Source of the DNA: Candidatus Humimicrobiaceae bacterium
GTDB lineage: Bacteria; Patescibacteriota; Minisyncoccia; Minisyncoccales; DG-74-1
DNA length: 64,000 nucleotides
Assembly (NCBI GenBank): GCA_035530555.1
Contig: DATKUR010000003.1
Location: forward strand, 19,184-83,183
Direction: 5' to 3'
Below, in pieces: positions 1 through 18,343 of the stretch; the stretch's first letter is position 1; each line of letters opens with the position of its first letter. The notes beneath the pieces are model-generated. The model did not search any database and was not told the origin of the DNA. It worked only from the letters and a program-made list of their open reading frames with translations. The translations under genes and the position numbers were made by a program.

Positions 1-308
1 AGATCTACAAGCTTATTCCAATTTGACGATTAGTAGAAAGTATCAATTGGACGGAAATCTTTCTACTTTTAGTCTATTTTGCTTTGATAGTCTTTCTAGA
101 CTTTAAAAAAGAACCATCTATCTCGATAATATGACACCCATTTTTCGCCTATCGAGAATCAGCGAACTGGATGCCGCATTAAGCGTAGGCTAACGCGGGT
201 TTTTGGAATAAGTTGGCACTTATGTCCGTGATAGGCAGTTTTACGAGTTGACCTATCTTGCTCGGCTTGCCTGTCTTGGTTAATTCCCCGTCTACTCAAC
301 GCGCCCCC
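1..308 (-). ncRNA. ssrA: tmRNA (ssrA), 5' portion; the 3' tRNA-like end lies beyond the window start
   Basis: The minus strand reads GGGGGCGCGUUGAGUAGACGGGG...AAGCCGAG...CUCGUAAAACUGCC...AUAAGU GCC AAC UUA UUC CAA AAA CCC GCG UUA GCC UAC GCU UAA. The 5' acceptor/P2a, the PK1 region and the pre-tag UCGUAAAA element match the tmRNA consensus as I recall it from E. coli ssrA. It is followed by a tag ORF (ANLFQKPALAYA*, plus coordinates 179-217) and lies immediately downstream of smpB. Confidence 0.8.
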
Positions 309-747
309 GTTTTAAAGTTCTTTCAATTTCTCTTTCTGTCTCTCGTTTCTTGATTGACTCTCTCTTGTCAGTTTTTTTCTTTCCTCTGGCAATCCCGAGC
401 TCAATTTTTATCTTCCCGTTTTTAGTATACACCTTTAATGGTATCAGGGTCAAGCCTTTTTGTTTTGATTTACCAATTAGATATTTAATCTCTGATTTTT
501 TTAAAAGGAGCTTTCGCGATCTCTCAGGGTCATAATCCGACGGCGCGTTTTTTGGTTGGTAAGCAGGAATTTTAGACCCAATCCAATATATTTCTTCGTT
601 CCGAACTATTACGTATGATCCTGCCAAGTTTACCCCTCTTGTTTTTATCGATTTTACTTCTTGACCAATCAAAACAACTCCCGCCTCGAATTTCTCCAGG
701 ATTTGGTAATTAAAGTAAGCTTTTTTATTCTCTGCTAAAAGTTTCAT
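292..747 (-). CDS. smpB: SsrA-binding protein SmpB
   Basis: MKLLAENKKAYFNYQILEKFEAGVVLIGQEVKSIK...basic C-terminal tail. The ORF was trimmed from 936 to the ATG at 745-747 because the 63-aa N-terminal extension is low-complexity and overlaps argS. Confidence 0.9.
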   Translation of the reverse strand: MKLLAENKKAYFNYQILEKFEAGVVLIGQEVKSIKTRGVNLAGSYVIVRNEEIYWIGSKIPAYQPKNAPSDYDPERSRKLLLKKSEIKYLIGKSKQKGLTLIPLKVYTKNGKIKIELGIARGKKKTDKRESIKKRETEREIERTLKRGRVE

Positions 748-777
748 CTCTTTTATTTTAGCAAAAATTAGGATAAA

Positions 778-2325
778 ATGAAGGAGATGGTAAAAGAAAA
801 AATAAAAAATTTGACAGCCAGAGCAGTCAAAAACCTCTATAAAAAGGAGGTAGAAATTGAAGTGGAGCGACCGGTAACAAAAAATTACGGTGATTACACT
901 ACTAATGTTGCAATGGCAATTAAGGAAAATCCCCAAGAGATCGCCAAACAGATAAAATCTACCATTCTAGAGAAGGTAGAAGTAAAGAACGGTTTTATTA
1001 ATTTTTTTCTTTCAAAGGAATATCTACAAGAACAAGTAAAAGAGATTTTAAAAGAAAAAGATAAATTCGGCTGTTTGAAAATTAACAAAGGTAAAAGGGC
1101 TAATCTGGAGTTCATTTCAGCCAATCCTACAGGAGAACTTCATTTAGGACATGGCCGAGGAGCTTTTTTTGGCGACGTTTTAGCTAATATTTTGGAGAAA
1201 TCAGGGGCTAAGGTGATCAAAGAATATTATATTAACGATGCTAAAACCAGCCTTCAGATAAAAGAGTTAGGGAAAACTGCTCTAGGCGAGGGGATCACTT
1301 ACTCTACGGATTATTTAAAAAAGGCGATCAAAAAAATAAAAAATAAAATTGAAAAATCCAGCGGTGAGGGAGAAGCAGGATATTTGTTAGCCCAGTTAGT
1401 TCAAAAAGATATTAGGGGATTTATTGAGGAAAAGCTGAAAATTAGATTTGCTAAATGGGTTTCAGAAGAGAACGATTTATATAAAAAAAGCAAGATAGCT
1501 AAAATTAAAAATTGGCTGACAAAGAAAAGATTAATTTACAAAAAAGAGGGAGCCATTTGGTTAAAAACTTCAAAATACGATGAGACAAAAGATTGGGTGG
1601 TAATTAGGGGGACGGGAGAGCCCACATACTTGCTTTCTGACATTGCCTATCATCAAGATAAATTTGAAAGAAAATTTGATAGAATAATTGATATCTGGGG
1701 CGCCGACCATCAAGGACACGTTGGCAAGATAAAAGCAGTAGCCAAGATGTTGAGATACAAGGGAGACTTAGATATCTTAATTTCTCAGGTTGTCAGACTA
1801 AGAAAAGGAAAGATTTCTAAGAGAAAGGGGCAGGTCGTAACTTTGGAATGGTTAATAAACGAAGTAGGGTTAGACGCAGCAAGATTTTTCTACTTAATGA
1901 AGTCTTTGGATACCCAGGTGGAATTCGATGTGGACTTAGCTAAAGAAAAATCCGTTAAAAGCCCTGTTTATTATATTCAGTATGCCCACGCCAGAATTTG
2001 CAGCATCTTGAGAAAAATTCCCAATCACAAATTTCCAGATTCCAACCTGAAATTATTAGTTCATCATTCAGAACTCAACTTAATTAAGCAGCTAATCAGA
2101 TTGCCGGAAATTATTGAAGAGACTGCCAAAGACTATCAGGTACAGCGATTGCCGCAATATTCAACAGAACTGGCAGCTGCTTTCCATCAATTCTACAGGG
2201 ATTGTCGGGTCCTGACCGAAACCCGTTCTCTGTTAGCTGCTCGTTTAGCTCTGGTTTTAGCTACTAAAATTGTTTTAAATAATACTTTAGATTTAATGGG
2301 AATTTCCGCCCCAGAGAAAATGTAA
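778..2325 (+). CDS. argS: arginyl-tRNA synthetase
   Basis: Class I HIGH-type motif HLGHGRGAFFGDVLANILEKSG, a DALR anticodon-binding C-terminus, and a length of 515 aa. Confidence 0.93.
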   Translation: MKEMVKEKIKNLTARAVKNLYKKEVEIEVERPVTKNYGDYTTNVAMAIKENPQEIAKQIKSTILEKVEVKNGFINFFLSKEYLQEQVKEILKEKDKFGCLKINKGKRANLEFISANPTGELHLGHGRGAFFGDVLANILEKSGAKVIKEYYINDAKTSLQIKELGKTALGEGITYSTDYLKKAIKKIKNKIEKSSGEGEAGYLLAQLVQKDIRGFIEEKLKIRFAKWVSEENDLYKKSKIAKIKNWLTKKRLIYKKEGAIWLKTSKYDETKDWVVIRGTGEPTYLLSDIAYHQDKFERKFDRIIDIWGADHQGHVGKIKAVAKMLRYKGDLDILISQVVRLRKGKISKRKGQVVTLEWLINEVGLDAARFFYLMKSLDTQVEFDVDLAKEKSVKSPVYYIQYAHARICSILRKIPNHKFPDSNLKLLVHHSELNLIKQLIRLPEIIEETAKDYQVQRLPQYSTELAAAFHQFYRDCRVLTETRSLLAARLALVLATKIVLNNTLDLMGISAPEKM

Positions 2326-2333
2326 ATAAATTT

Positions 2334-5300
2334 ATGGAGATAAATTTTTCCCAGAAAGAAAAAAAGATATTAAAATTTTGGCGGCAAAATGGAATTTTTA
2401 AGAAATCTATTCAGAAGCGCAAAAAGGCGCCGGATTTTGTATTTTTTGAAGGACCGCCAACCGCTAATGCTAAACCAGGCATCCACCATGTTTTAAGCAG
2501 GGTTTATAAGGATGTTATTTGTAGATACAAAACCATGCAGGGATTTAAAGTTTTAAGGAAGGCTGGTTGGGACACTCATGGGTTGCCAGTTGAATTAGAA
2601 ATTGAGAAGAAATTGGGTTTGAGAAATAAAAAAGATATTGAGAAATACGGCATAGCTAAGTTTAATAAACTATGCAAGCAATCGGTTTGGAATTACAAAA
2701 AAGATTGGGAAAATTTAACTGAAAGAATTGCTTTTTGGCTAGATATGAAAAATCCTTACATTACTTATCAGCCGAATTATATTGAGACAGTTTGGTGGAT
2801 TATCAAACAGATTTGGCAGAAAGGACTTTTATACAAAGACTATAAAGTAGTCCCTTACTGCGCTCGTTGCGGTACAGGCTTATCGAGTCATGAAGTAGCC
2901 TTAGGGTATAAAAGGATAAGAGAACCAGCAATTTATATTAAGTTTCCAGTTTTGAACCCGGAATTTAAGAAAACCTTCCTTTTGGCTTGGACAACTACTC
3001 CCTGGACATTACCGGGGAACGTTGCGGTGGCTGTAAACCCAGAATTTACTTACGTTAAAGTAAAAATCGGTGAAGAATACTTAATTTTGGCTAAAGAAAG
3101 AATGGGGACTTGCGGAGCGGAAGGAGAAACCGTTAAAGAGTTTAAAGGGAGAGACTTGGTTAATTTGAGGTACCAACCGCTCTATCCTTTCAGTGAAGAG
3201 ATTATTAAGGGGGCTTACCGAGTGATTTCGGCTGATTTTGTTTCTTTGGAAGAAGGAACCGGGCTGGTTCATATAGCTCCGGCCTTTGGCGAAGAAGACA
3301 TGATAATAGGCAAGGAGAATCGGTTACCGACCCTCTTAACAGTTGACGAAGAGGGGAAATTTAAATTAGGAGTTAAAAAATGGGCCAGAATGTTTATTAA
3401 AGAAGCTGACCCATTAATAATCGACGATTTAAAAAGCAGAAATCTTCTCTTTAAAAAGGAAATATACGAACACGATTATCCTTTTTGTTGGCGGTGTCAT
3501 TCGCCCTTGTTTTATTATGCCAAAGAATCCTGGTTTATCAGGGTGACTAAGATAAAGAAAAGCTTAATTAAGAATAACCAAAGAATCAACTGGATTCCGG
3601 CTCATTTGAAAAAAGGAAGATTTGGCGAATGGTTAAAGGAAGTCAAGGATTGGGCCCTAACTAGAGAAAGATACTGGGGAACACCTTTGCCAATTTGGCA
3701 ATGTAGAGAATGCGGCTACCTTGAGGTAATTGGCTCAAAGAAAGATTTGGTATCACAAAAATTCAGCGAAAATAAATACTTTCTTTTAAGGCACGGAACG
3801 TATCCTGGTAACTTAGAAGATATCGTCGTTTGTTGGCCAGAAAAAAGGTCCTTTCCCTTGACTAAGGAAGGAGAGAATCAAATCAAGGCGGTTGCCCAAA
3901 AATTAAAGAACGAAAACATTGACTTAATTTTTTCGTCAGACCTTTTGAGAACAAAACAAACTGCTGAAATTATCGGAAAGGAGTTAGGAATAAAGCCGAA
4001 ATTTGATAAAAAACTTAGGGAAATCAGCGTTGGAATTTTAAACGGAAAACCGATTAAAGAAATTGGTAGATTTTGGGACAAAGAAAAAAAGCTCTCTCCC
4101 CTAGAATATTATTCAAGACGTTTTCAGGTTGCCCCTCCGGAAGGGGAAAATTATACCGACATAGAGAGAAGAATGTACCAATTTATAAAGCGGATTGATA
4201 AAAAATACCAAGGAAAAAATATTTTAATTGTTGGTCATCAACGACCCTTAACTTTACTTGAGAAGGCAAACTACGGCTACGATTTAAAACGACTTACAGA
4301 AATTGTCCTTAGGAAAAAAGAAATAAAAACTGGAGAACTGAGAAAGTTTAAGTTCAAGAGCTTGCCTTATAATAAAAAAATGGAGTTAGATTTCCACCGG
4401 CCTTATGTTGACGAAGTAAAGTTTTGTTGCCAAAACTGTAACGCCCTGATGGAGAGAGCTCCTGAGGTTATTGACTGCTGGTTTGATTCCGGAGCTATGC
4501 CCTTCGCTCAATATCACTATCCTTTTGAAAATAAAGCTTTGATTAATAAGAAAATTCAATTCCCAGCTGATTATATTTCAGAAGCAATTGATCAAACTCG
4601 GGGATGGTTCTATACTTTATTAGCTATTTCTTCCCTACTTGAAAAAGGTCCGACCTATAAAAATGTTCTTTCGGTAGGTCACGTCTTGGATGAAAAAGGA
4701 GAAAAAATGTCAAAATCAAAAGGAAACGTGGTTGATCCCTGGTATATTGTTGAAAAATATGGAGCCGACGCCACTCGCTGGTATTTTTACACCGTTAACC
4801 AACCCGGCGACTCTAAGCTTTTTTCAGAAAAAGACGTCGACCAGGCGCTTAAGAAGTTTATTTTGACTTTTTGGAATTGTTTTACCTTTTATAACACTTA
4901 CATTGCGAATATCAGCAGGGGCCAGTTTCCTCTTAAATCAGCTTCTAATGTAGAGACAGATGTTCCCTTATTGGAGCGATGGGCTGTATCAAAATTAAAC
5001 AGGGTTATCCATGAGGTGACCCAAAAACTTGATGAATACGACATAACTGGGGCCGCTAGAATAATTGAAAATTTCGTTATTAATGATTTCTCTTTGTGGT
5101 ACATTAGAAGGTCGCGTAAGCGCTTTGACGAAGCCGCTAACACCTTGCGGTATACACTTTTGACATTAAGTAAGCTAACCGCTCCCTTTATTCCTTTTCT
5201 ATCCGAGGAAATATACCAAAAAATCCAAAATTCCCCGAAGCAGATAAATTTTGCGACGAGGCAGACAAAATCAAAAATTCAAGACTCTGTCCATTTAGAT

Positions 5301-5843
5301 AATTGGCCGAAAGCAAATAAAAAATTGATTAATAGAGTGTTGGAAAAGAAAATGGAGAAGGCGAGAGAAGCGGTGGCTAAAGGTTTAGCTGAGAGGGCTA
5401 AGGTAAAAATTAAAGTTAGGCAGCCATTAGCGAAATTAAAAATTAAAGATTTAAGGTTTAAGCTGGAAGCAGAATTATTAGATTTGATTAAAGAAGAAGT
5501 TAATGTCAAGGAAATAATTTTTGACCCCAAAATTAAAGGAGAGGTAGAACTAGATACTGAAATTACTCCGGAATTGAGAGAAGCAGGAATAATCAGGGAA
5601 GTTATCCGGCAGATTCAAGAAATGAGAAAAATCGCCGGCTTTAGACCAAAAGACAAGATTTCAGTAAATTATTTTGGCCCGGATGAATTAAGTAAAATCT
5701 TGGAGAAAAATAAAAATTTCATTTTTATAGAAGGCAAAATTAGCAATTTTGTACAAAAAGAAAAAGGAAAAGAGGTTTTTGCTGTTGAAAAAGAGGCTAT
5801 GGTCGACCAGCAAAAACTATGGTTAGCAATTAAAAAAAATTAA
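2334..5843 (+). CDS. ileS: isoleucyl-tRNA synthetase (type 2) with an inserted histidine-phosphatase domain
   Basis: PPTANAKPGIHHV (HIGH region), CP1 editing domain, WCISRQRYWG-like YWGTPLPIW, DCWFDSG, and KMSKSKGNVVDP. A PGAM-like insert (RHG...SSDLLRTKQTAEII...VGHQ) spans about aa 475-680. Confidence 0.9.
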   Translation: MEINFSQKEKKILKFWRQNGIFKKSIQKRKKAPDFVFFEGPPTANAKPGIHHVLSRVYKDVICRYKTMQGFKVLRKAGWDTHGLPVELEIEKKLGLRNKKDIEKYGIAKFNKLCKQSVWNYKKDWENLTERIAFWLDMKNPYITYQPNYIETVWWIIKQIWQKGLLYKDYKVVPYCARCGTGLSSHEVALGYKRIREPAIYIKFPVLNPEFKKTFLLAWTTTPWTLPGNVAVAVNPEFTYVKVKIGEEYLILAKERMGTCGAEGETVKEFKGRDLVNLRYQPLYPFSEEIIKGAYRVISADFVSLEEGTGLVHIAPAFGEEDMIIGKENRLPTLLTVDEEGKFKLGVKKWARMFIKEADPLIIDDLKSRNLLFKKEIYEHDYPFCWRCHSPLFYYAKESWFIRVTKIKKSLIKNNQRINWIPAHLKKGRFGEWLKEVKDWALTRERYWGTPLPIWQCRECGYLEVIGSKKDLVSQKFSENKYFLLRHGTYPGNLEDIVVCWPEKRSFPLTKEGENQIKAVAQKLKNENIDLIFSSDLLRTKQTAEIIGKELGIKPKFDKKLREISVGILNGKPIKEIGRFWDKEKKLSPLEYYSRRFQVAPPEGENYTDIERRMYQFIKRIDKKYQGKNILIVGHQRPLTLLEKANYGYDLKRLTEIVLRKKEIKTGELRKFKFKSLPYNKKMELDFHRPYVDEVKFCCQNCNALMERAPEVIDCWFDSGAMPFAQYHYPFENKALINKKIQFPADYISEAIDQTRGWFYTLLAISSLLEKGPTYKNVLSVGHVLDEKGEKMSKSKGNVVDPWYIVEKYGADATRWYFYTVNQPGDSKLFSEKDVDQALKKFILTFWNCFTFYNTYIANISRGQFPLKSASNVETDVPLLERWAVSKLNRVIHEVTQKLDEYDITGAARIIENFVINDFSLWYIRRSRKRFDEAANTLRYTLLTLSKLTAPFIPFLSEEIYQKIQNSPKQINFATRQTKSKIQDSVHLDNWPKANKKLINRVLEKKMEKAREAVAKGLAERAKVKIKVRQPLAKLKIKDLRFKLEAELLDLIKEEVNVKEIIFDPKIKGEVELDTEITPELREAGIIREVIRQIQEMRKIAGFRPKDKISVNYFGPDELSKILEKNKNFIFIEGKISNFVQKEKGKEVFAVEKEAMVDQQKLWLAIKKN

Positions 5844-5846
5844 AAT

Positions 5847-6236
5847 ATGGCTATTTCCGAAAAACAACAATCATTTATTAAAGAAAATATAGGAAAACAA
5901 GAGAAAGCGTCACCTCCTAAAGAAGAGGAAAAAGACACCTCGCTGTTTAAAGGCAGGCCCTATGTTACTCAAGAAACAGGAAAGCGTTGGGTAAAGGGAA
6001 ACGAAGCATACAACCTTACAAAAATTCCCGAAAAAAGAAGAACTGAAGTATGGGAAAATATTACTAAAGGTACCGATATTCATTTTCAAACGAGTGAAGC
6101 TAAAGAAAAATACAAAGAAATCAAAGAATCATCCCTAGTAAAGGTTAAAGAAAAATATGGAATTAAAAGCGAAGGAGAGAGAAAGGGCATGCTTAAAATG
6201 CTAGAAAAATCTTTAGGAAAATCTCTAAAAAAATAA
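5847..6236 (+). CDS. hypothetical K/E-rich protein
   Basis: A 129-aa charged ORF with no recognisable motif, tightly packed between ileS and recO. Confidence 0.45.
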   Translation: MAISEKQQSFIKENIGKQEKASPPKEEEKDTSLFKGRPYVTQETGKRWVKGNEAYNLTKIPEKRRTEVWENITKGTDIHFQTSEAKEKYKEIKESSLVKVKEKYGIKSEGERKGMLKMLEKSLGKSLKK

Positions 6237-15946: not shown

Positions 15947-18343
15947 ATGAGTTATAATCCACAGGAATTTGAGAAAAAGTGGCAGGATTATTGGGAAAAG
16001 AATAATCTCTTTCGGGCAGAGGATTTTTCTAAAAAACCTAAAAAATATATTTTAGTTGAATTTCCCTATCCTTCGGGTGACGGTCTCCATGTCGGCCACG
16101 CCCGGGGCTACTCAGCCTTAGATGCGATAGCTCGTAAAAGGAGAATGGAAGGATATAACGTTTTGTTTCCTATCGGCTGGGATGCTTTTGGCTTGCCAAC
16201 AGAGAACTACGCTATCAAAACCGGCATTCATCCTAAAAAAGTAACCGAAGAAAATACCACTAACTTTAAAAGACAGTTAAAATCCTTAGGTCTTTCTTTT
16301 GATTGGTCGAAAGAGATTAATACTACCAATTCTAAATACTACAAATGGACCCAATGGATTTTTCTTAAACTTTTTGAAAAGGGTTTAGCTTATCAGGCCG
16401 AAATACCGGTTAATTGGTGTCCTTCCTGCAAAATTGGATTAGCCAATGAAGAAGTAGTAGGGGGTGCTTGTGAGCGTTGCGGAACTACCGCAGAGAAAAA
16501 AGTTCTGAAACAATGGATGTTGAAAATTACAGCTTATGCTGACAGACTGGTAGAAGACTTAGAAAAAGTTGATTATTTAGATAAAATTAAGACCCAGCAG
16601 ATTAATTGGATAGGTAAAAGCCGTGGTACAGAAATTGATTTTAGGATTGAAGATTCAAAAGAGGTAATTCAGGTTTTTACTACCAGAACTGATACTCTTT
16701 TTGGCGTAACGGCAGTGGTTATCTCTCCAGAAAGCCCTTTAGTTGGAAGACTAATCAGGTTAGAACAAAAAGAAGAAGCCGAAAGATACATTACTGAAGC
16801 TAAAAAGAAGAGTGATTTTGAAAGAGAAAAATTAGAAAAGGAGAAAGCTGGAGTTTTTACGGGGTCTTATTGTGTTAATCCTGGAAATTCTGAAAAAATT
16901 CCAATCTGGATAGGAGATTATGTAATATTTACTTATGGTGGGGGGGCCGTGATGGTAGTTCCGGCCCACGATTACCGGGATTACGATTTTGCTAAGAAAT
17001 ATGATTTAGAAATCAGAGAAGTTATTTCTGGTAGTGATATTTCTAAAGAGGCTTTTGTAGATTATGGGAAGTTGGTCAATTCCGGCCAGTTCAATGGATT
17101 ATCTTCCCAAGAAGCAATTGGAAAAATTACAGATTGGCTACAAAAAAAAGGTCTTGGCAGGAAAAAAGTCCAGTATAAACTGCGAGACTGGGTTTTCTCC
17201 CGTCAGCATTATTGGGGCGAGCCAATTCCGATTATTCATTGTCAGAGATGCGGCACTGTCCCCGTACCAGAGAAAGATTTGCCGGTCGAGCTGCCCTATG
17301 TTGAAAAATATCAGCCAACCGGGACTGGTGAATCTCCCTTAGCCGCTGTTTCTGAGTGGGTTGATACTAAATGTCCCAAATGTGGAGGCAAGGCTGAAAG
17401 AGAAACGGATACTATGCCCAATTGGGCGGGTTCAAATTGGTATTTTCTTCGTTATACCGACCCCGATAATAATAAAGAGTTAGCCGATAAAAAGAAAATA
17501 AAATACTGGTTACCGGTTGATTGGTACAACGGCGGTATGGAGCACACCACCTTACATTTATTGTATTCTCGCTTTATCTATAAATTTCTTTACGATATTA
17601 AAATAGTCCCGCAGCCCGAACCATATCAAAAAAGAACCTCTCATGGTATGGTTCTAGCCGAAGACGGCAGAAAAATGTCAAAATCTTTCGGTAATACCAT
17701 TAATCCCGATGAAATCGTCAATAAATATGGTGCTGATACCTTAAGGGTTTATGAAATGTTTATGGGACCTTTCGATCAGGCGATTACCTGGAGTACCCAG
17801 GGAGTAAAAGGGGTTTATAGATTCTTGGAGAAGGTTTGGCGGCTGGTTTCTCAGTGCGCCGAAAACAAGAAAAGTAGTCCAGAAATTTTAAGAGCCATAC
17901 ACAAACTAAATAAAAAAATAGATGAAGATTTAGAAGCAACAAAATTTAATACGGCCGTAGCCGCTTTTATGGAATTTATTAATTTATGCCAGGAAAGAAA
18001 GGAAGAAGTTGGGAAAGAAACACTTGAATGCATGTTGACCTTGCTCTATCCTTTAGCGCCTCATATTTCAGAAGAACTTTGGAGCTTATTGGGTCAGAAA
18101 GAAAGCATCGCTTTTCAAAAATGGCCCGAATATGACTCTAAATTAATTAAGGAGGAAACGATAACCTTGGTTATTCAGATTAATGGTAAGGTTAGAGATA
18201 AAATTGAAGTCGAGGCTAATATTTCTGAAGAAAAAGCGCGTACCCTTGCAATCTCTCAAGAAAAGATTAAAAATAGGATATCTGGCAAAAAAATCAGAAA
18301 AATTATTTTTGTTCCCGGTAAGTTAATCAACGTCGTCATATAA
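15947..18343 (+). CDS. leuS: leucyl-tRNA synthetase
   Basis: YPSGDGLHVGHARGYSALDAIARKRRMEGYNVLFPIGWDAFGLP and KMSKSFGNTINP. Confidence 0.95.
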   Translation: MSYNPQEFEKKWQDYWEKNNLFRAEDFSKKPKKYILVEFPYPSGDGLHVGHARGYSALDAIARKRRMEGYNVLFPIGWDAFGLPTENYAIKTGIHPKKVTEENTTNFKRQLKSLGLSFDWSKEINTTNSKYYKWTQWIFLKLFEKGLAYQAEIPVNWCPSCKIGLANEEVVGGACERCGTTAEKKVLKQWMLKITAYADRLVEDLEKVDYLDKIKTQQINWIGKSRGTEIDFRIEDSKEVIQVFTTRTDTLFGVTAVVISPESPLVGRLIRLEQKEEAERYITEAKKKSDFEREKLEKEKAGVFTGSYCVNPGNSEKIPIWIGDYVIFTYGGGAVMVVPAHDYRDYDFAKKYDLEIREVISGSDISKEAFVDYGKLVNSGQFNGLSSQEAIGKITDWLQKKGLGRKKVQYKLRDWVFSRQHYWGEPIPIIHCQRCGTVPVPEKDLPVELPYVEKYQPTGTGESPLAAVSEWVDTKCPKCGGKAERETDTMPNWAGSNWYFLRYTDPDNNKELADKKKIKYWLPVDWYNGGMEHTTLHLLYSRFIYKFLYDIKIVPQPEPYQKRTSHGMVLAEDGRKMSKSFGNTINPDEIVNKYGADTLRVYEMFMGPFDQAITWSTQGVKGVYRFLEKVWRLVSQCAENKKSSPEILRAIHKLNKKIDEDLEATKFNTAVAAFMEFINLCQERKEEVGKETLECMLTLLYPLAPHISEELWSLLGQKESIAFQKWPEYDSKLIKEETITLVIQINGKVRDKIEVEANISEEKARTLAISQEKIKNRISGKKIRKIIFVPGKLINVVI

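What the first reader, a model, noticed from the sequence alone, without database searches (positions are those of the whole stretch)
3756..4373. A complete histidine-phosphatase (PGAM-like) domain inserted in-frame inside isoleucyl-tRNA synthetase
In the 1169-aa IleS ORF, residues ~475-680 lie between the first zinc-knuckle half (WQCRECG, aa ~456-461) and the second half (CCQNCN...DCWFDSG, aa ~698-719). They carry all hallmarks of a branch-1 histidine phosphatase: the catalytic RHG (FLLRHGTYPGN), the canonical SSDLLRTKQTAEIIG (SSxLxRAxQTA), and a distal VGHQRPL (second catalytic His). Canonical IleS proceeds from the first knuckle almost directly to HRPYxDE. Here ~200 extra residues are present with no stop or frameshift, so this is a genuine domain fusion and not two genes. 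I do not know of a described aminoacyl-tRNA synthetase with an embedded phosphatase. It could act on a phospho-nucleotide, an alarmone, or a tRNA 3'/2',3'-cyclic phosphate end, or it could be a domesticated insertion. A mobile-intein origin is unlikely, because no intein splicing motifs are present.
Basis: partly seen in the sequence, partly recalled or inferred. Interest (0 to 1): 0.8.

Follow-up and report, generated by a model that had tools for sequence, protein, structure and literature searches.

The report
Phosphatase domain embedded in isoleucyl-tRNA synthetase
An intact phosphatase enzyme sits inside the isoleucine-charging enzyme of a large group of tiny-genome (CPR/Patescibacteria) bacteria; in relatives it is a separate gene next to that enzyme, and a different phosphatase occupies the same spot in the valine-charging enzyme, with no description found in ten literature searches.

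Summary
The 1169-aa ORF at 2334-5843 is a type-2 IleRS. A His_Phos_1 domain (Pfam E 1.5e-35, aa 483-659) replaces a ~9-residue loop between the two Cys pairs of the CP3 zinc knuckle.

It is not an assembly artefact or an intein. At least 120 protein clusters and 37 species-representative genomes of Parcubacteria-type Patescibacteria share the layout. All catalytic residues are kept in 115/115 sequences, dN/dS is about 0.12, and the domain models at pLDDT 95.

Three new points:
- In about 39 other species the same phosphatase is a free-standing ~198-aa gene immediately upstream of an insert-less ileS. In 21 of 28 loci the stop and start are within 15 nt or overlap.
- The two layouts are interleaved on both trees, with at least 4-6 switches.
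- A separate His_Phos_1 lineage is embedded at the homologous knuckle of ValRS in 69 clusters.

Best reading: an active small-molecule-type phosphomonoesterase serving as an accessory module of IleRS. Its substrate is unknown. The main rival is a housekeeping phosphatase trapped in ileS as a passenger.

Ten full-text searches found no description, and databases name these proteins only IleRS or "class I tRNA ligase family protein". I rate it a new variant of a known kind, interest about 0.7.

The parts
2334..5843 (+). ileS: type-2 isoleucyl-tRNA synthetase, 1169 aa, with the embedded phosphatase
   Evidence: ORF. TIGR00392 890 bits, PF00133 + PF08264 + PF19302. Best PDB match is T. thermophilus IleRS 1ILE, E 5.9e-261. 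Identical to database protein P0121.
2478..2489 (+). Class I signature motif in its non-canonical form GIHH (aa 49-52)
   Evidence: Aligns to HVGH of T. thermophilus IleRS. It is the G/AXHH form described for mupirocin-hyper-resistant IleRS2 in PMC10485003. Coordinates verified.
2988..3020 (+). CP1 editing-domain motif WTTTPWTLPGN (aa 219-229)
   Evidence: Invariant or nearly invariant in 115 fusions, so the editing domain is intact.
3702..3713 (+). First Cys pair of the CP3 zinc knuckle (C457, C460; CREC)
   Evidence: Invariant in 115 fusions. Aligns to Cys461/Cys464 of T. thermophilus IleRS. CP3 and its zinc motif are named in PMC7191050.
3729..3773 (+). N-terminal linker (aa 466-480, IGSKKDLVSQKFSEN)
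   Evidence: Alignment with insert-less IleS and with free-standing phosphatases. N480 is invariant.
3774..4349 (+). Histidine-phosphatase (His_Phos_1) domain, aa 481-672. Catalytic residues: R486/H487 (nt 3789-3794), R539 (3948-3950), E563 (4020-4022), H635 (4236-4238).
   Evidence: PF00300 E 1.5e-35. Catalytic residues kept in 115/115 embedded and 25/25 free-standing sequences. AF2 pLDDT 95.4, pTM 0.91. Foldseek TM 0.74-0.80 to PspA, PhoE, Rv2419c and CobC. dN/dS 0.13.
4350..4394 (+). C-terminal linker (aa 673-687, KFKSLPYNKKMELDF), conserved among embedded forms
   Evidence: F674, P678, E684, D686 and F687 are at least 90% conserved in 115 fusions. The segment is absent from free-standing proteins, which end at about aa 675.
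4428..4439 (+). Second Cys pair of the CP3 zinc knuckle (C699, C702; CQNC)
   Evidence: Invariant in 115 fusions. Aligns to Cys502/Cys504 of T. thermophilus IleRS.
4704..4718 (+). KMSKS loop (aa 791-795)
   Evidence: Invariant in 115 fusions.
778..2325 (+). argS, immediately upstream. The 8-nt argS-ileS gap is where relatives carry the free-standing phosphatase gene.
   Evidence: Synteny with L001-L007: smpB | argS | His_Phos | ileS | small ORF | recO.

Best explanation
SHOWN. The segment is a complete, catalytically intact branch-1 histidine phosphatase inserted into the loop of the CP3 zinc knuckle of a type-2 IleRS. The four zinc-ligand cysteines flank the base of the insert. The synthetase's GIHH, CP1 editing and KMSKS motifs are all intact. 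The layout is lineage-wide in Parcubacteria-type Patescibacteria and is under purifying selection. In sister lineages the same phosphatase is a separate ~198-aa gene directly upstream of ileS, usually overlapping it. The two layouts have switched several times.

INFERRED. The phosphatase is an accessory catalytic module of IleRS, covalently attached here and probably a co-translated partner in the split layout. It uses the standard mechanism: His487 attacks a phosphomonoester to form phospho-histidine, Arg486, Arg539 and His635 bind the phosphate, and Glu563 protonates the leaving group. Its sequence and fold neighbours are small-molecule phosphatases (CobC, PhoE, PspA, Rv2419c), so the substrate is most likely a small phospho-metabolite. 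My leading guess is a nucleotide-like phosphate, because CobC is the best NCBIfam hit, but that guess deserves no more than 0.2-0.3.

INFERRED. Switching between layouts is most simply explained by tandem duplication of [phosphatase + 5' part of ileS] followed by differential loss. Multi-copy tandem forms would be intermediates.
For: Domain identity and integrity.
Insertion site: T. thermophilus 479-487 replaced; the site is CP3.
Selection: dN/dS of the insert is 0.12, against 0.06-0.16 for the IleS domains. The insert's entropy is 1.45 bits, the same as the anticodon domain at 1.46.
Lineage-wide: 120/120 best clusters and 37 species representatives.
Split layout. In 21/28 loci the stop and start are within 15 nt; 13 overlap.
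Discordant histories: the window's insert is 72% identical to free-standing P0002, whose IleS is only 49% identical to the window's. Other fusions have IleS 66-68% but insert 47-63% identical. Parsimony gives at least 4-6 switches on the IleS tree and 7-16 on the phosphatase tree.
Conserved C-linker.
Multi-copy forms.
Independent capture of another His_Phos_1 lineage at the homologous ValRS knuckle.
Against: - No biochemical data exist and no substrate is identified.
- The domain misses the curated cutoff of every characterised subfamily (CobC 93-98 against 163; PspA 63-67 against 350; dPGM 28 against 82; SixA 32 against 74.5).
- The tools give no model coordinates, so I cannot tell whether the phosphatase active site faces the synthetic site, the editing site or the tRNA.
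- Adjacency in the split layout could be a historical by-product of how the domain was freed, combined with tight gene packing, and not selected coupling.
- 7 of about 39 split loci have an unrelated gene in between, and 4 Patescibacteria loci show no ileS within the fetched flank.
- Insert-less ValRS relatives have no adjacent phosphatase.
- The trees are neighbour-joining with weak deep support, so the direction of the switches is unresolved.
Confidence: 0.6

Rival explanations
1. Passenger. A housekeeping small-molecule phosphatase with no role in aminoacylation happened to lie in the ileS operon. Duplication and differential loss trapped it in CP3. CP3 is a peripheral, structurally variable and permissive loop, and the phosphatase fold tolerates insertion. 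In compact genomes the fusion is neutral and simply guarantees co-expression.
For: - CP3 differs in topology between IleRSs and is peripheral (PMC7191050).
- The domain's neighbours are ordinary metabolic phosphatases.
- The domain works as a free-standing protein in about half of the lineages.
- Insert-less ValRS relatives need no phosphatase next to valS.
- Some split loci have unrelated genes between the phosphatase and ileS, or no ileS nearby.
Against: - The association with ileS survives at least 4-6 layout switches and divergence down to about 35-40% phosphatase identity, while the upstream neighbours change.
- 13/28 junctions overlap.
- The C-linker is conserved, which suggests fixed docking.
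- An unrelated His_Phos_1 lineage was captured at exactly the same knuckle in ValRS.
- Every large host found among the best representative hits was IleRS- or ValRS-type.
Confidence: 0.27
2. Protein phosphatase. The domain removes a phosphate from the synthetase itself or from a partner protein. One example would be reversing phosphorylation of the KMSKS-loop serine by HipA/HipT-type toxin kinases, which are known from my own knowledge to target GltX and TrpS.
For: The superfamily includes protein phosphatases (SixA, Sts-1, PGAM5; my own knowledge). There is a weak SixA match (E 1e-7). The cis attachment next to the catalytic domain and the multi-copy forms would suit a protective role.
Against: No protein phosphatase is among the top 50 structural neighbours. 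SixA scores 32 bits against a cutoff of 74.5. No kinase was seen in the conserved neighbourhood. Constitutive lineage-wide conservation looks more like housekeeping than defence.
Confidence: 0.07
3. tRNA-end phosphatase. The domain removes a 2'- or 3'-phosphate from the tRNA 3' end so that it can be charged.
For: It is tethered to tRNA-binding enzymes (IleRS, ValRS) that aminoacylate A76. A His_Phos domain fused to an RNA/DNA enzyme has a precedent in the RNase H/acid phosphatase family NF005567, which matches at 76-102 bits.
Against: To my knowledge no member of this superfamily is a polynucleotide 3'-phosphatase. Nothing explains specificity for tRNA-Ile or tRNA-Val. The position of CP3 relative to the acceptor end could not be evaluated. 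In the yeast complex the acceptor stem makes only a few contacts with the catalytic domain (PMC11685878).
Confidence: 0.05
4. Artefact. A chimeric assembly, two genes miscalled as one, or an intein.
For: None beyond the prior expectation for MAG data. The NCBI taxon label of the source MAG is doubtful.
Against: There is one uninterrupted frame. The same junctions occur in more than 120 independent clusters and 37 species. No GC step is seen. There is no Hint domain and there are no splice residues. The linkers are conserved.
Confidence: 0.01

Closest known systems
Type-2 IleRS (T. thermophilus 1ILE; Priestia megaterium IleRS2 8C8U)
   Same: Full-length homology on both sides of the insert (E 5.9e-261 and 2.5e-240). 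CP1 editing motifs, KMSKS, and the CP3 zinc knuckle with four Cys are shared. The G/AXHH signature variant is known in IleRS2.
   Different: About 210 extra residues forming a second enzyme replace a ~9-residue CP3 loop. The C-terminal region carries DUF5915.
PhoE/YhfR, PspA, CobC and Rv2419c-type ~200-aa histidine phosphatases
   Same: Same fold (TM 0.74-0.80). The catalytic set RHG...R...E...H is the same. Size is about 190 aa, without the dPGM C-terminal tail.
   Different: Only 20-28% identity, and below every subfamily cutoff. It has its own conserved features (N480, the W501-P502-E503 'CWPEK' loop, E605, R613). It is embedded in, or operon-coupled to, a tRNA synthetase.
CP1 editing domain of IleRS/ValRS/LeuRS
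   Same: A hydrolytic domain inserted into a connective peptide of the Rossmann fold of a class Ia synthetase, giving the enzyme an additional active site.
   Different: CP1 is universal, ancient, and acts on aminoacyl-tRNA or adenylate. This insert is lineage-restricted, sits in CP3, comes from an unrelated superfamily, and also exists as a free-standing gene.
NCBIfam NF040702 'isoleucine-tRNA ligase, N-acetyltransferase domain-containing'
   Same: A bacterial IleRS that has acquired an extra enzymatic domain.
   Different: The added domain is a GNAT. The window protein scores 303 bits against a cutoff of 1999, so it is not a member.
Bifunctional RNase H / CobC-like acid phosphatase (NF005567, Rv2228c type)
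   Same: A CobC-like His_Phos_1 domain fused to a nucleic-acid enzyme. The phosphatase part matches at 76-102 bits.
   Different: That is an end-to-end fusion, not an insertion. The partner is RNase H. The score is below the cutoff of 326.

Membership tests
Histidine phosphatase superfamily, branch 1 (PF00300) | Profile match above Pfam's gathering score | tested here: met
   123-128 bits against a cutoff of 21.7, E 1.5e-35 to 5.5e-37.
Histidine phosphatase superfamily, branch 1 (PF00300) | Catalytic core: RHG (Arg + nucleophilic His), second Arg, acidic proton donor, second His | tested here: met
   R486, H487, R539 and H635 are invariant. Position 563 is E in 92 and D in 23 of the 115 fusions. 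The same residues are kept in 25 free-standing proteins. They align to PhoE residues.
Histidine phosphatase superfamily, branch 1 (PF00300) | Alpha/beta fold of the superfamily | tested here: met
   AF2 pLDDT 95.4, pTM 0.91. Foldseek probability 1.00, TM 0.74-0.80 to solved members.
Histidine phosphatase superfamily, branch 1 (PF00300) | Phosphatase activity | not testable with these tools
   Needs an enzyme assay.
Cofactor-dependent phosphoglycerate mutase (TIGR01258) | Score above the curated cutoff | tested here: not met
   28 bits against a cutoff of 81.7. At ~190 aa the domain is shorter than the dPGM chains, and its fits to them are poorer (rmsd about 8 Angstrom).
Alpha-ribazole phosphatase CobC (TIGR03162) | Score above the curated cutoff | tested here: not met
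   93-98 bits against a cutoff of 162.9. This is the best-scoring subfamily, but it is below threshold.
Phosphoserine phosphatase PspA (NF045917) / SixA (TIGR00249) | Score above the curated cutoff | tested here: not met
   PspA 63-67 against 350. SixA 32 against 74.5.
Isoleucine-tRNA ligase (TIGR00392) | Equivalog score above the cutoff | tested here: met
   890.5 bits against a cutoff of 621.4, in two stretches that flank the insert.
Isoleucine-tRNA ligase (TIGR00392) | Class I signature (HXGH or the IleRS2 variant G/AXHH), KMSKS, CP1 editing motifs | tested here: met
   GIHH aa 49-52, KMSKS 791-795, WTTTPWTLPGN 219-229. All are conserved in 115 homologs.
Isoleucine-tRNA ligase (TIGR00392) | Aminoacylation of tRNA-Ile | not testable with these tools
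   Needs an assay. The window has no second ileS, but the rest of the genome was not seen.
Intein | Hint domain and splice-junction residues (N-terminal Cys/Ser; C-terminal His-Asn followed by Cys/Ser/Thr) | tested here: not met
   No Hint or intein Pfam match. The junctions read ...VSQKFSEN/KYF... and ...MELDF/HRPY. The same domain exists as a normal free-standing gene.
IleRS with GNAT domain (NF040702) | Score above the curated cutoff | tested here: not met
   302.6 bits against a cutoff of 1999.

The most novel reading that the evidence does not exclude
The phosphatase is a true third active site of class Ia synthetases. It would be docked on the CP3 zinc knuckle and act on something at the aminoacylation centre, for example a phosphorylated KMSKS-loop serine (reversing HipA-like toxin kinases), a phosphorylated tRNA 3' end, or an inhibitory phospho-nucleotide. 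Its separate recruitment by IleRS and ValRS would then point to an unrecognised layer of quality control or self-defence of translation in CPR bacteria.
Probability: 0.12. Interest if true: 0.9.

Novelty: new variant of a known kind. Interest (0 to 1): 0.72.

Why it matters
Aminoacyl-tRNA synthetases are among the most conserved and best-studied enzymes. New catalytic domains inside their cores are very rare in bacteria, CP1 editing being the classic case.

This case offers several things:
- A second enzyme is wedged into the CP3 zinc knuckle of an essential synthetase across a whole radiation of uncultivated bacteria.
- There is a natural experiment: embedded and free-standing layouts have switched repeatedly.
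- There is a parallel, independently acquired insertion in ValRS.
- The question is directly testable. The proteins can be expressed, H487A is an obvious null mutant, and the split-layout pair allows a binding test.

The work also explains why annotation pipelines demote these proteins to "class I tRNA ligase family protein". It documents domain relocation between a neighbouring gene and an internal loop. If the passenger reading is right, it is still a clean example of how compact genomes fuse unrelated functions.

Tried and rejected
1. One search, a search with the insert alone, returned only free-standing ~198-aa proteins and not even the window's own protein. I first read this as the fusion being unique. 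One search showed it was a limitation of the word index: the fusion is in the database (P0121) along with more than 120 relatives.
2. From L001 I suspected that the first Cys pair of the knuckle is lost whenever the phosphatase is not embedded. One search rejected this for IleRS: 25/26 split-layout IleS keep 2+2 Cys. It holds only partly for ValRS.
3. I looked for a third conserved partner among the genes lying between the phosphatase and ileS in 7 split loci. They are heterogeneous.
4. I tested whether insert-less ValRS relatives carry an adjacent phosphatase gene. None does in 3 lineages.
5. I looked for direct or inverted repeats at the insert junctions as traces of recombination. Only short AT-rich chance matches turned up.
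6. Pyrophosphate removal as the function. A membrane H+-PPase lies near valS in related lineages, and to my knowledge this superfamily is not known for pyrophosphatase activity.
7. Phosphoglycerate mutase. It fails TIGR01258.
8. Intein or misassembly. Rejected.
9. Shorter proteins (~750, ~850, ~920 aa) that looked like possible new host proteins are all 5'-truncated or possibly split IleS.
10. Ten full-text literature searches and a look through the AARS Online paper found no description.
Full report
**1. The observation**

The window holds one uninterrupted ORF at 2334-5843 (+), 1169 aa.
- NCBIfam identifies it as ileS: TIGR00392 scores 890 bits against a cutoff of 621. The match falls in two stretches that end at aa 475 and resume after the insert.
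- Pfam places His_Phos_1 (PF00300) at aa 483-659, E 1.5e-35. Scanned alone, the insert gives E 5.5e-37.
- There is no GC discontinuity across the segment, no Hint/intein domain and no meaningful repeats at the junctions.

The closest solved structure is T. thermophilus IleRS (1ILE).
- Window aa 2-474 align to residues 7-478 and aa 685-1023 to 488-818.
- About 210 residues (nt 3756-4385) therefore replace a loop of about 9 residues.
- That loop lies between the CxxC that aligns to Cys461/464 and the second Cys pair that aligns to Cys502/504.
- The literature calls this element the CP3 subdomain. [quoted passage not shown]

**2. It is real and lineage-wide**

A search with the insert alone returned only free-standing ~198-aa proteins. 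That proved to be a limitation of the word index.
- The full-length search found the window's own protein (P0121, 100%). All of the best 120 clusters (61-81% identity, 1120-1221 aa) carry PF00300 together with the IleS domains.
- They come from NCBI, JGI, ENA and Logan assemblies of Parcubacteria, Paceibacterota, Nealsonbacteria and other Patescibacteria. They are named only 'isoleucyl-tRNA synthetase' or 'class I tRNA ligase family protein'.
- An RHG motif sits at about aa 484-524 in 119 of 120.
- A scan of GTDB species-representative genomes found at least 545 relatives of the phosphatase. Of the 80 loci kept, 37 have the embedded layout.

Misassembly is excluded.

**3. It is a constrained, catalytically intact enzyme**

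- Across 115 embedded fusions, R486, H487, R539, E605, R613 and H635 are invariant, and position 563 is always acidic (E 92, D 23). The same holds in 25 free-standing relatives.
- The four knuckle cysteines, the CP1 editing motifs and KMSKS are also invariant.
- The insert's column entropy (1.45 bits) equals that of the anticodon-binding domain (1.46).
- Against the closest relative (L008, Parcubacteria DG_74_1), dN/dS is 0.12 for the insert, compared with 0.06 for the N-terminal body, 0.13 for the C-terminal body and 0.16 for the anticodon/C-terminal domains. dS is about 1, so these values are approximate.
- AlphaFold2 models the insert as a discrete alpha/beta domain: pLDDT 87-96 within the full-length model (overall 77.7, pTM 0.65), and pLDDT 95.4, pTM 0.91 when modelled alone.
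- Its sequence and fold neighbours are ~200-aa small-molecule phosphomonoesterases: PhoE/YhfR, PspA, alpha-ribazole phosphatase CobC, glucosyl-3-phosphoglycerate phosphatase Rv2419c and a riboflavin-pathway phosphatase. No protein phosphatase of the superfamily is in the top 50.
- It is below the curated cutoff of every characterised subfamily. CobC is the best at 93-98 against 163, and dPGM scores 28 against 82.

**4. The same phosphatase is a neighbouring gene in sister lineages**

- The free-standing hits are 55-73% identical to the insert and align to window aa 478-675.
- Every context examined has the order smpB(-) | argS | His_Phos (~198 aa) | ileS (947-964 aa, no insert) | small ORF | recO | .... 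That is the window's own gene order, except that here argS (ends 2325) abuts ileS (starts 2334) and the phosphatase is inside ileS.
- Among the species representatives, 34 complete and 5 truncated loci have this split layout.
- In 21 of 28 such loci the phosphatase stop and the ileS start are within 15 nt, and in 13 they overlap. That indicates operonic, probably translational, coupling.
- Exceptions exist. Seven split loci have an unrelated, heterogeneous gene in between. Four Patescibacteria loci show no ileS within the fetched flank.

**5. The two layouts have switched repeatedly**

- The window's insert is 72% identical to free-standing P0002, but that gene's partner IleS is only 49% identical to the window's IleS body. 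Other embedded fusions show the reverse pattern: IleS 66-68% identical overall, insert region only 47-63%.
- In neighbour-joining trees, one clade of insert-less IleS (14 species, 100% bootstrap) is distant from all embedded-type IleS. Other insert-less groups are interleaved with embedded ones.
- The window's phosphatase groups with free-standing ones (61% bootstrap for a 13-member group).
- Fitch parsimony needs at least 4-6 layout switches on the IleS tree and 7-16 on the phosphatase tree.
- Deep nodes are weakly supported, so the direction is unresolved. The outgroup-rooted phosphatase tree places embedded forms basally.

I infer, but have not shown, that tandem duplication of [phosphatase + 5' part of ileS] followed by differential loss can interconvert the layouts in either direction. 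In-situ replacement of ileS by a divergent copy may account for the distant clade. Forms with two to four tandem phosphatase copies, or with a second copy at another IleS site, do exist (L060/L061, P0247, P0259, P0325). They would fit as duplication products.

**6. ValRS has a parallel insertion**

- Locus L079 encodes a valine-tRNA ligase (valS equivalog, 854 bits against a cutoff of 704) with His_Phos_1 at aa 439-621.
- This too is lineage-wide: 69 of the best 120 ValRS clusters (880-970 aa; Liptonbacteria, Wolfebacteria, Paceibacterota) carry it. Relatives that are 70-86% identical over the aligned N-terminal ~47% of the query are ~700-730 aa and lack it.
- The insertion lies between CLKCG and CEKCGG, the homologous CP3 knuckle.
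- The ValRS-borne domains form their own clade (30/30, 65% bootstrap). They are only ~31% identical to the IleRS-associated domains, no closer than to outgroup phosphatases at 33-36%. That points to a separate capture and not a transfer from IleRS.
- Unlike the IleRS case, three insert-less ValRS relatives have no phosphatase gene next to valS.
- The knuckle's 2+2 cysteines are present in 51/52 ValRS with the insert but are variable in those without it. In IleRS they are kept in both layouts (31/33 and 25/26).
- The window's own LeuRS (15947-18343) has no insert, and the window contains no valS.

**7. Mechanism**

What is shown is an intact phosphatase active site on a folded domain, held at its base by a four-Cys zinc knuckle and a conserved C-linker (F674, P678, E684, D686 and F687 at least 90% conserved), on an otherwise complete editing-competent IleRS.

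What is inferred:
- The domain is an accessory module or subunit of IleRS that hydrolyses a small phosphomonoester by the standard phospho-histidine mechanism. The association survives repeated rearrangement and has a parallel in ValRS, so I favour functional coupling (about 0.6).
- The main rival (about 0.27) is a housekeeping phosphatase trapped as a passenger in a permissive loop.
- The substrate is unknown. A nucleotide-like phosphate is my leading guess, because CobC is the best-scoring subfamily, but I give it no more than 0.2-0.3.
- A protein-phosphatase role and a tRNA-end role are minor rivals.
- Pyrophosphate removal is unlikely, because an H+-PPase lies near valS in related lineages.

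The tools do not return model coordinates. I therefore could not determine which way the phosphatase active site faces relative to the synthetic site, the editing site or the tRNA.

**8. Comparison with what is known, and novelty**

- The host is a member of type-2 IleRS, and the insert is a member of His_Phos_1. Both memberships were tested and met.
- The insert does not belong to any characterised phosphatase subfamily, and the protein is not the GNAT-containing IleRS of NCBIfam.
- The nearest conceptual precedents are the CP1 editing domain (a hydrolase inserted into a connective peptide) and the RNase H/CobC-like phosphatase fusion.
- Ten full-text searches and the AARS Online paper gave no description of a synthetase with an embedded histidine phosphatase. 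The library lacks most subscription-journal papers, so this is absence of evidence only.
- Hundreds of such sequences are already in public databases under generic names.
- I class it as a new variant of a known kind, meaning a synthetase with an accreted domain. The layout switching and the ValRS parallel add to its interest.

**9. Limits**

- The trees are neighbour-joining on p-distance-derived distances, and the phosphatase alignment is short (about 180 columns).
- dS is near saturation.
- Only 80 of at least 545 genome loci were examined.
- Whole genomes were not available, so co-occurrence of the ValRS and IleRS forms, and the presence of other phosphatases, could not be checked.
- There is no experimental evidence of any kind.

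Noticed in passing
window 2478-2489 (IleS aa 49-52): The class I signature motif is GIHH, the swapped G/AXHH form that PMC10485003 links to mupirocin hyper-resistance in IleRS2. In the 115-sequence alignment G49, H51 and H52 are at least 90% conserved and the consensus reads GIHH, so the whole clade appears to carry it.
   Followed up: partly
window 1-308 (-) and 292-936 (-): A tmRNA gene (Rfam RF00023, 66 bits) is cut by the window edge and sits next to smpB. The listed 214-aa TTG ORF overlaps the argS start. Relatives' SmpB are 149-156 aa, so the real smpB start is probably further downstream.
   Followed up: no
P0121, the window's IleS; taxonomy: NCBI labels the source MAG 'Candidatus Humimicrobiaceae' (Actinomycetota). 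Every close homolog and the conserved synteny are Parcubacteria/Patescibacteria, so the contig is probably mis-binned or the MAG mislabelled.
   Followed up: partly
L060:3510-7616 and L061; proteins P0247, P0259, P0292, P0287, P0325: Some IleRS (and one ValRS-like protein) carry 2-4 phosphatase copies, either in tandem in CP3 or with a second copy at another site (near window aa 735-745 or 856-880).
   Followed up: partly
proteins P0260, P0290, P0298, P0379 (start at window aa 404); P0283, P0284, P0246 (start at the phosphatase): Four independent 50%-identity clusters begin at exactly the same IleS residue, and others begin at the phosphatase and continue into the IleS C-half. These could be split ileS genes and not random truncations.
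   Followed up: no
protein P0332 (1030 aa): An IleS-like protein that aligns to window aa 3-188 and 385-1158. It lacks the CP1 editing domain but keeps the embedded phosphatase.
   Followed up: no
protein P0263 (689 aa): Its N-terminal ~500 aa do not match IleS and start like the window's ArgS N-terminus (by eye; not tested), and the phosphatase is at the C-terminus (aa 506-662). This may be a read-through fusion of the upstream neighbour argS with the free-standing phosphatase.
   Followed up: no
window 5847-6236 (+), 129 aa: A small ORF directly after ileS with no Pfam match. Small unannotated ORFs (125-142 aa) sit at the same place between ileS and recO in relatives L001, L004 and L006.
   Followed up: no
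L004:1313-2819: A bAvd + reverse transcriptase (RVT_1) pair, typical of a diversity-generating retroelement, followed by a 1015-aa protein, lies immediately upstream of the phosphatase-ileS pair. It replaces argS there.
   Followed up: no
loci L008-L082 (ArgS column): The ArgS upstream of ileS falls into two classes, about 40-77% or about 24-29% identical to the window's ArgS. This suggests replacement of argS by a distant type in many lineages.
   Followed up: no
window 15947-18343 (+): LeuRS (798 aa) with a CP1 editing domain and no phosphatase insert. Within this window the insertion is specific to IleRS.
   Followed up: yes
L058:5550-6160: The ~200-aa ORF between the phosphatase and ileS in this locus looks, by eye, like a CYTH/triphosphate-tunnel protein. 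I did not run a profile search on it. It is a single case.
   Followed up: no
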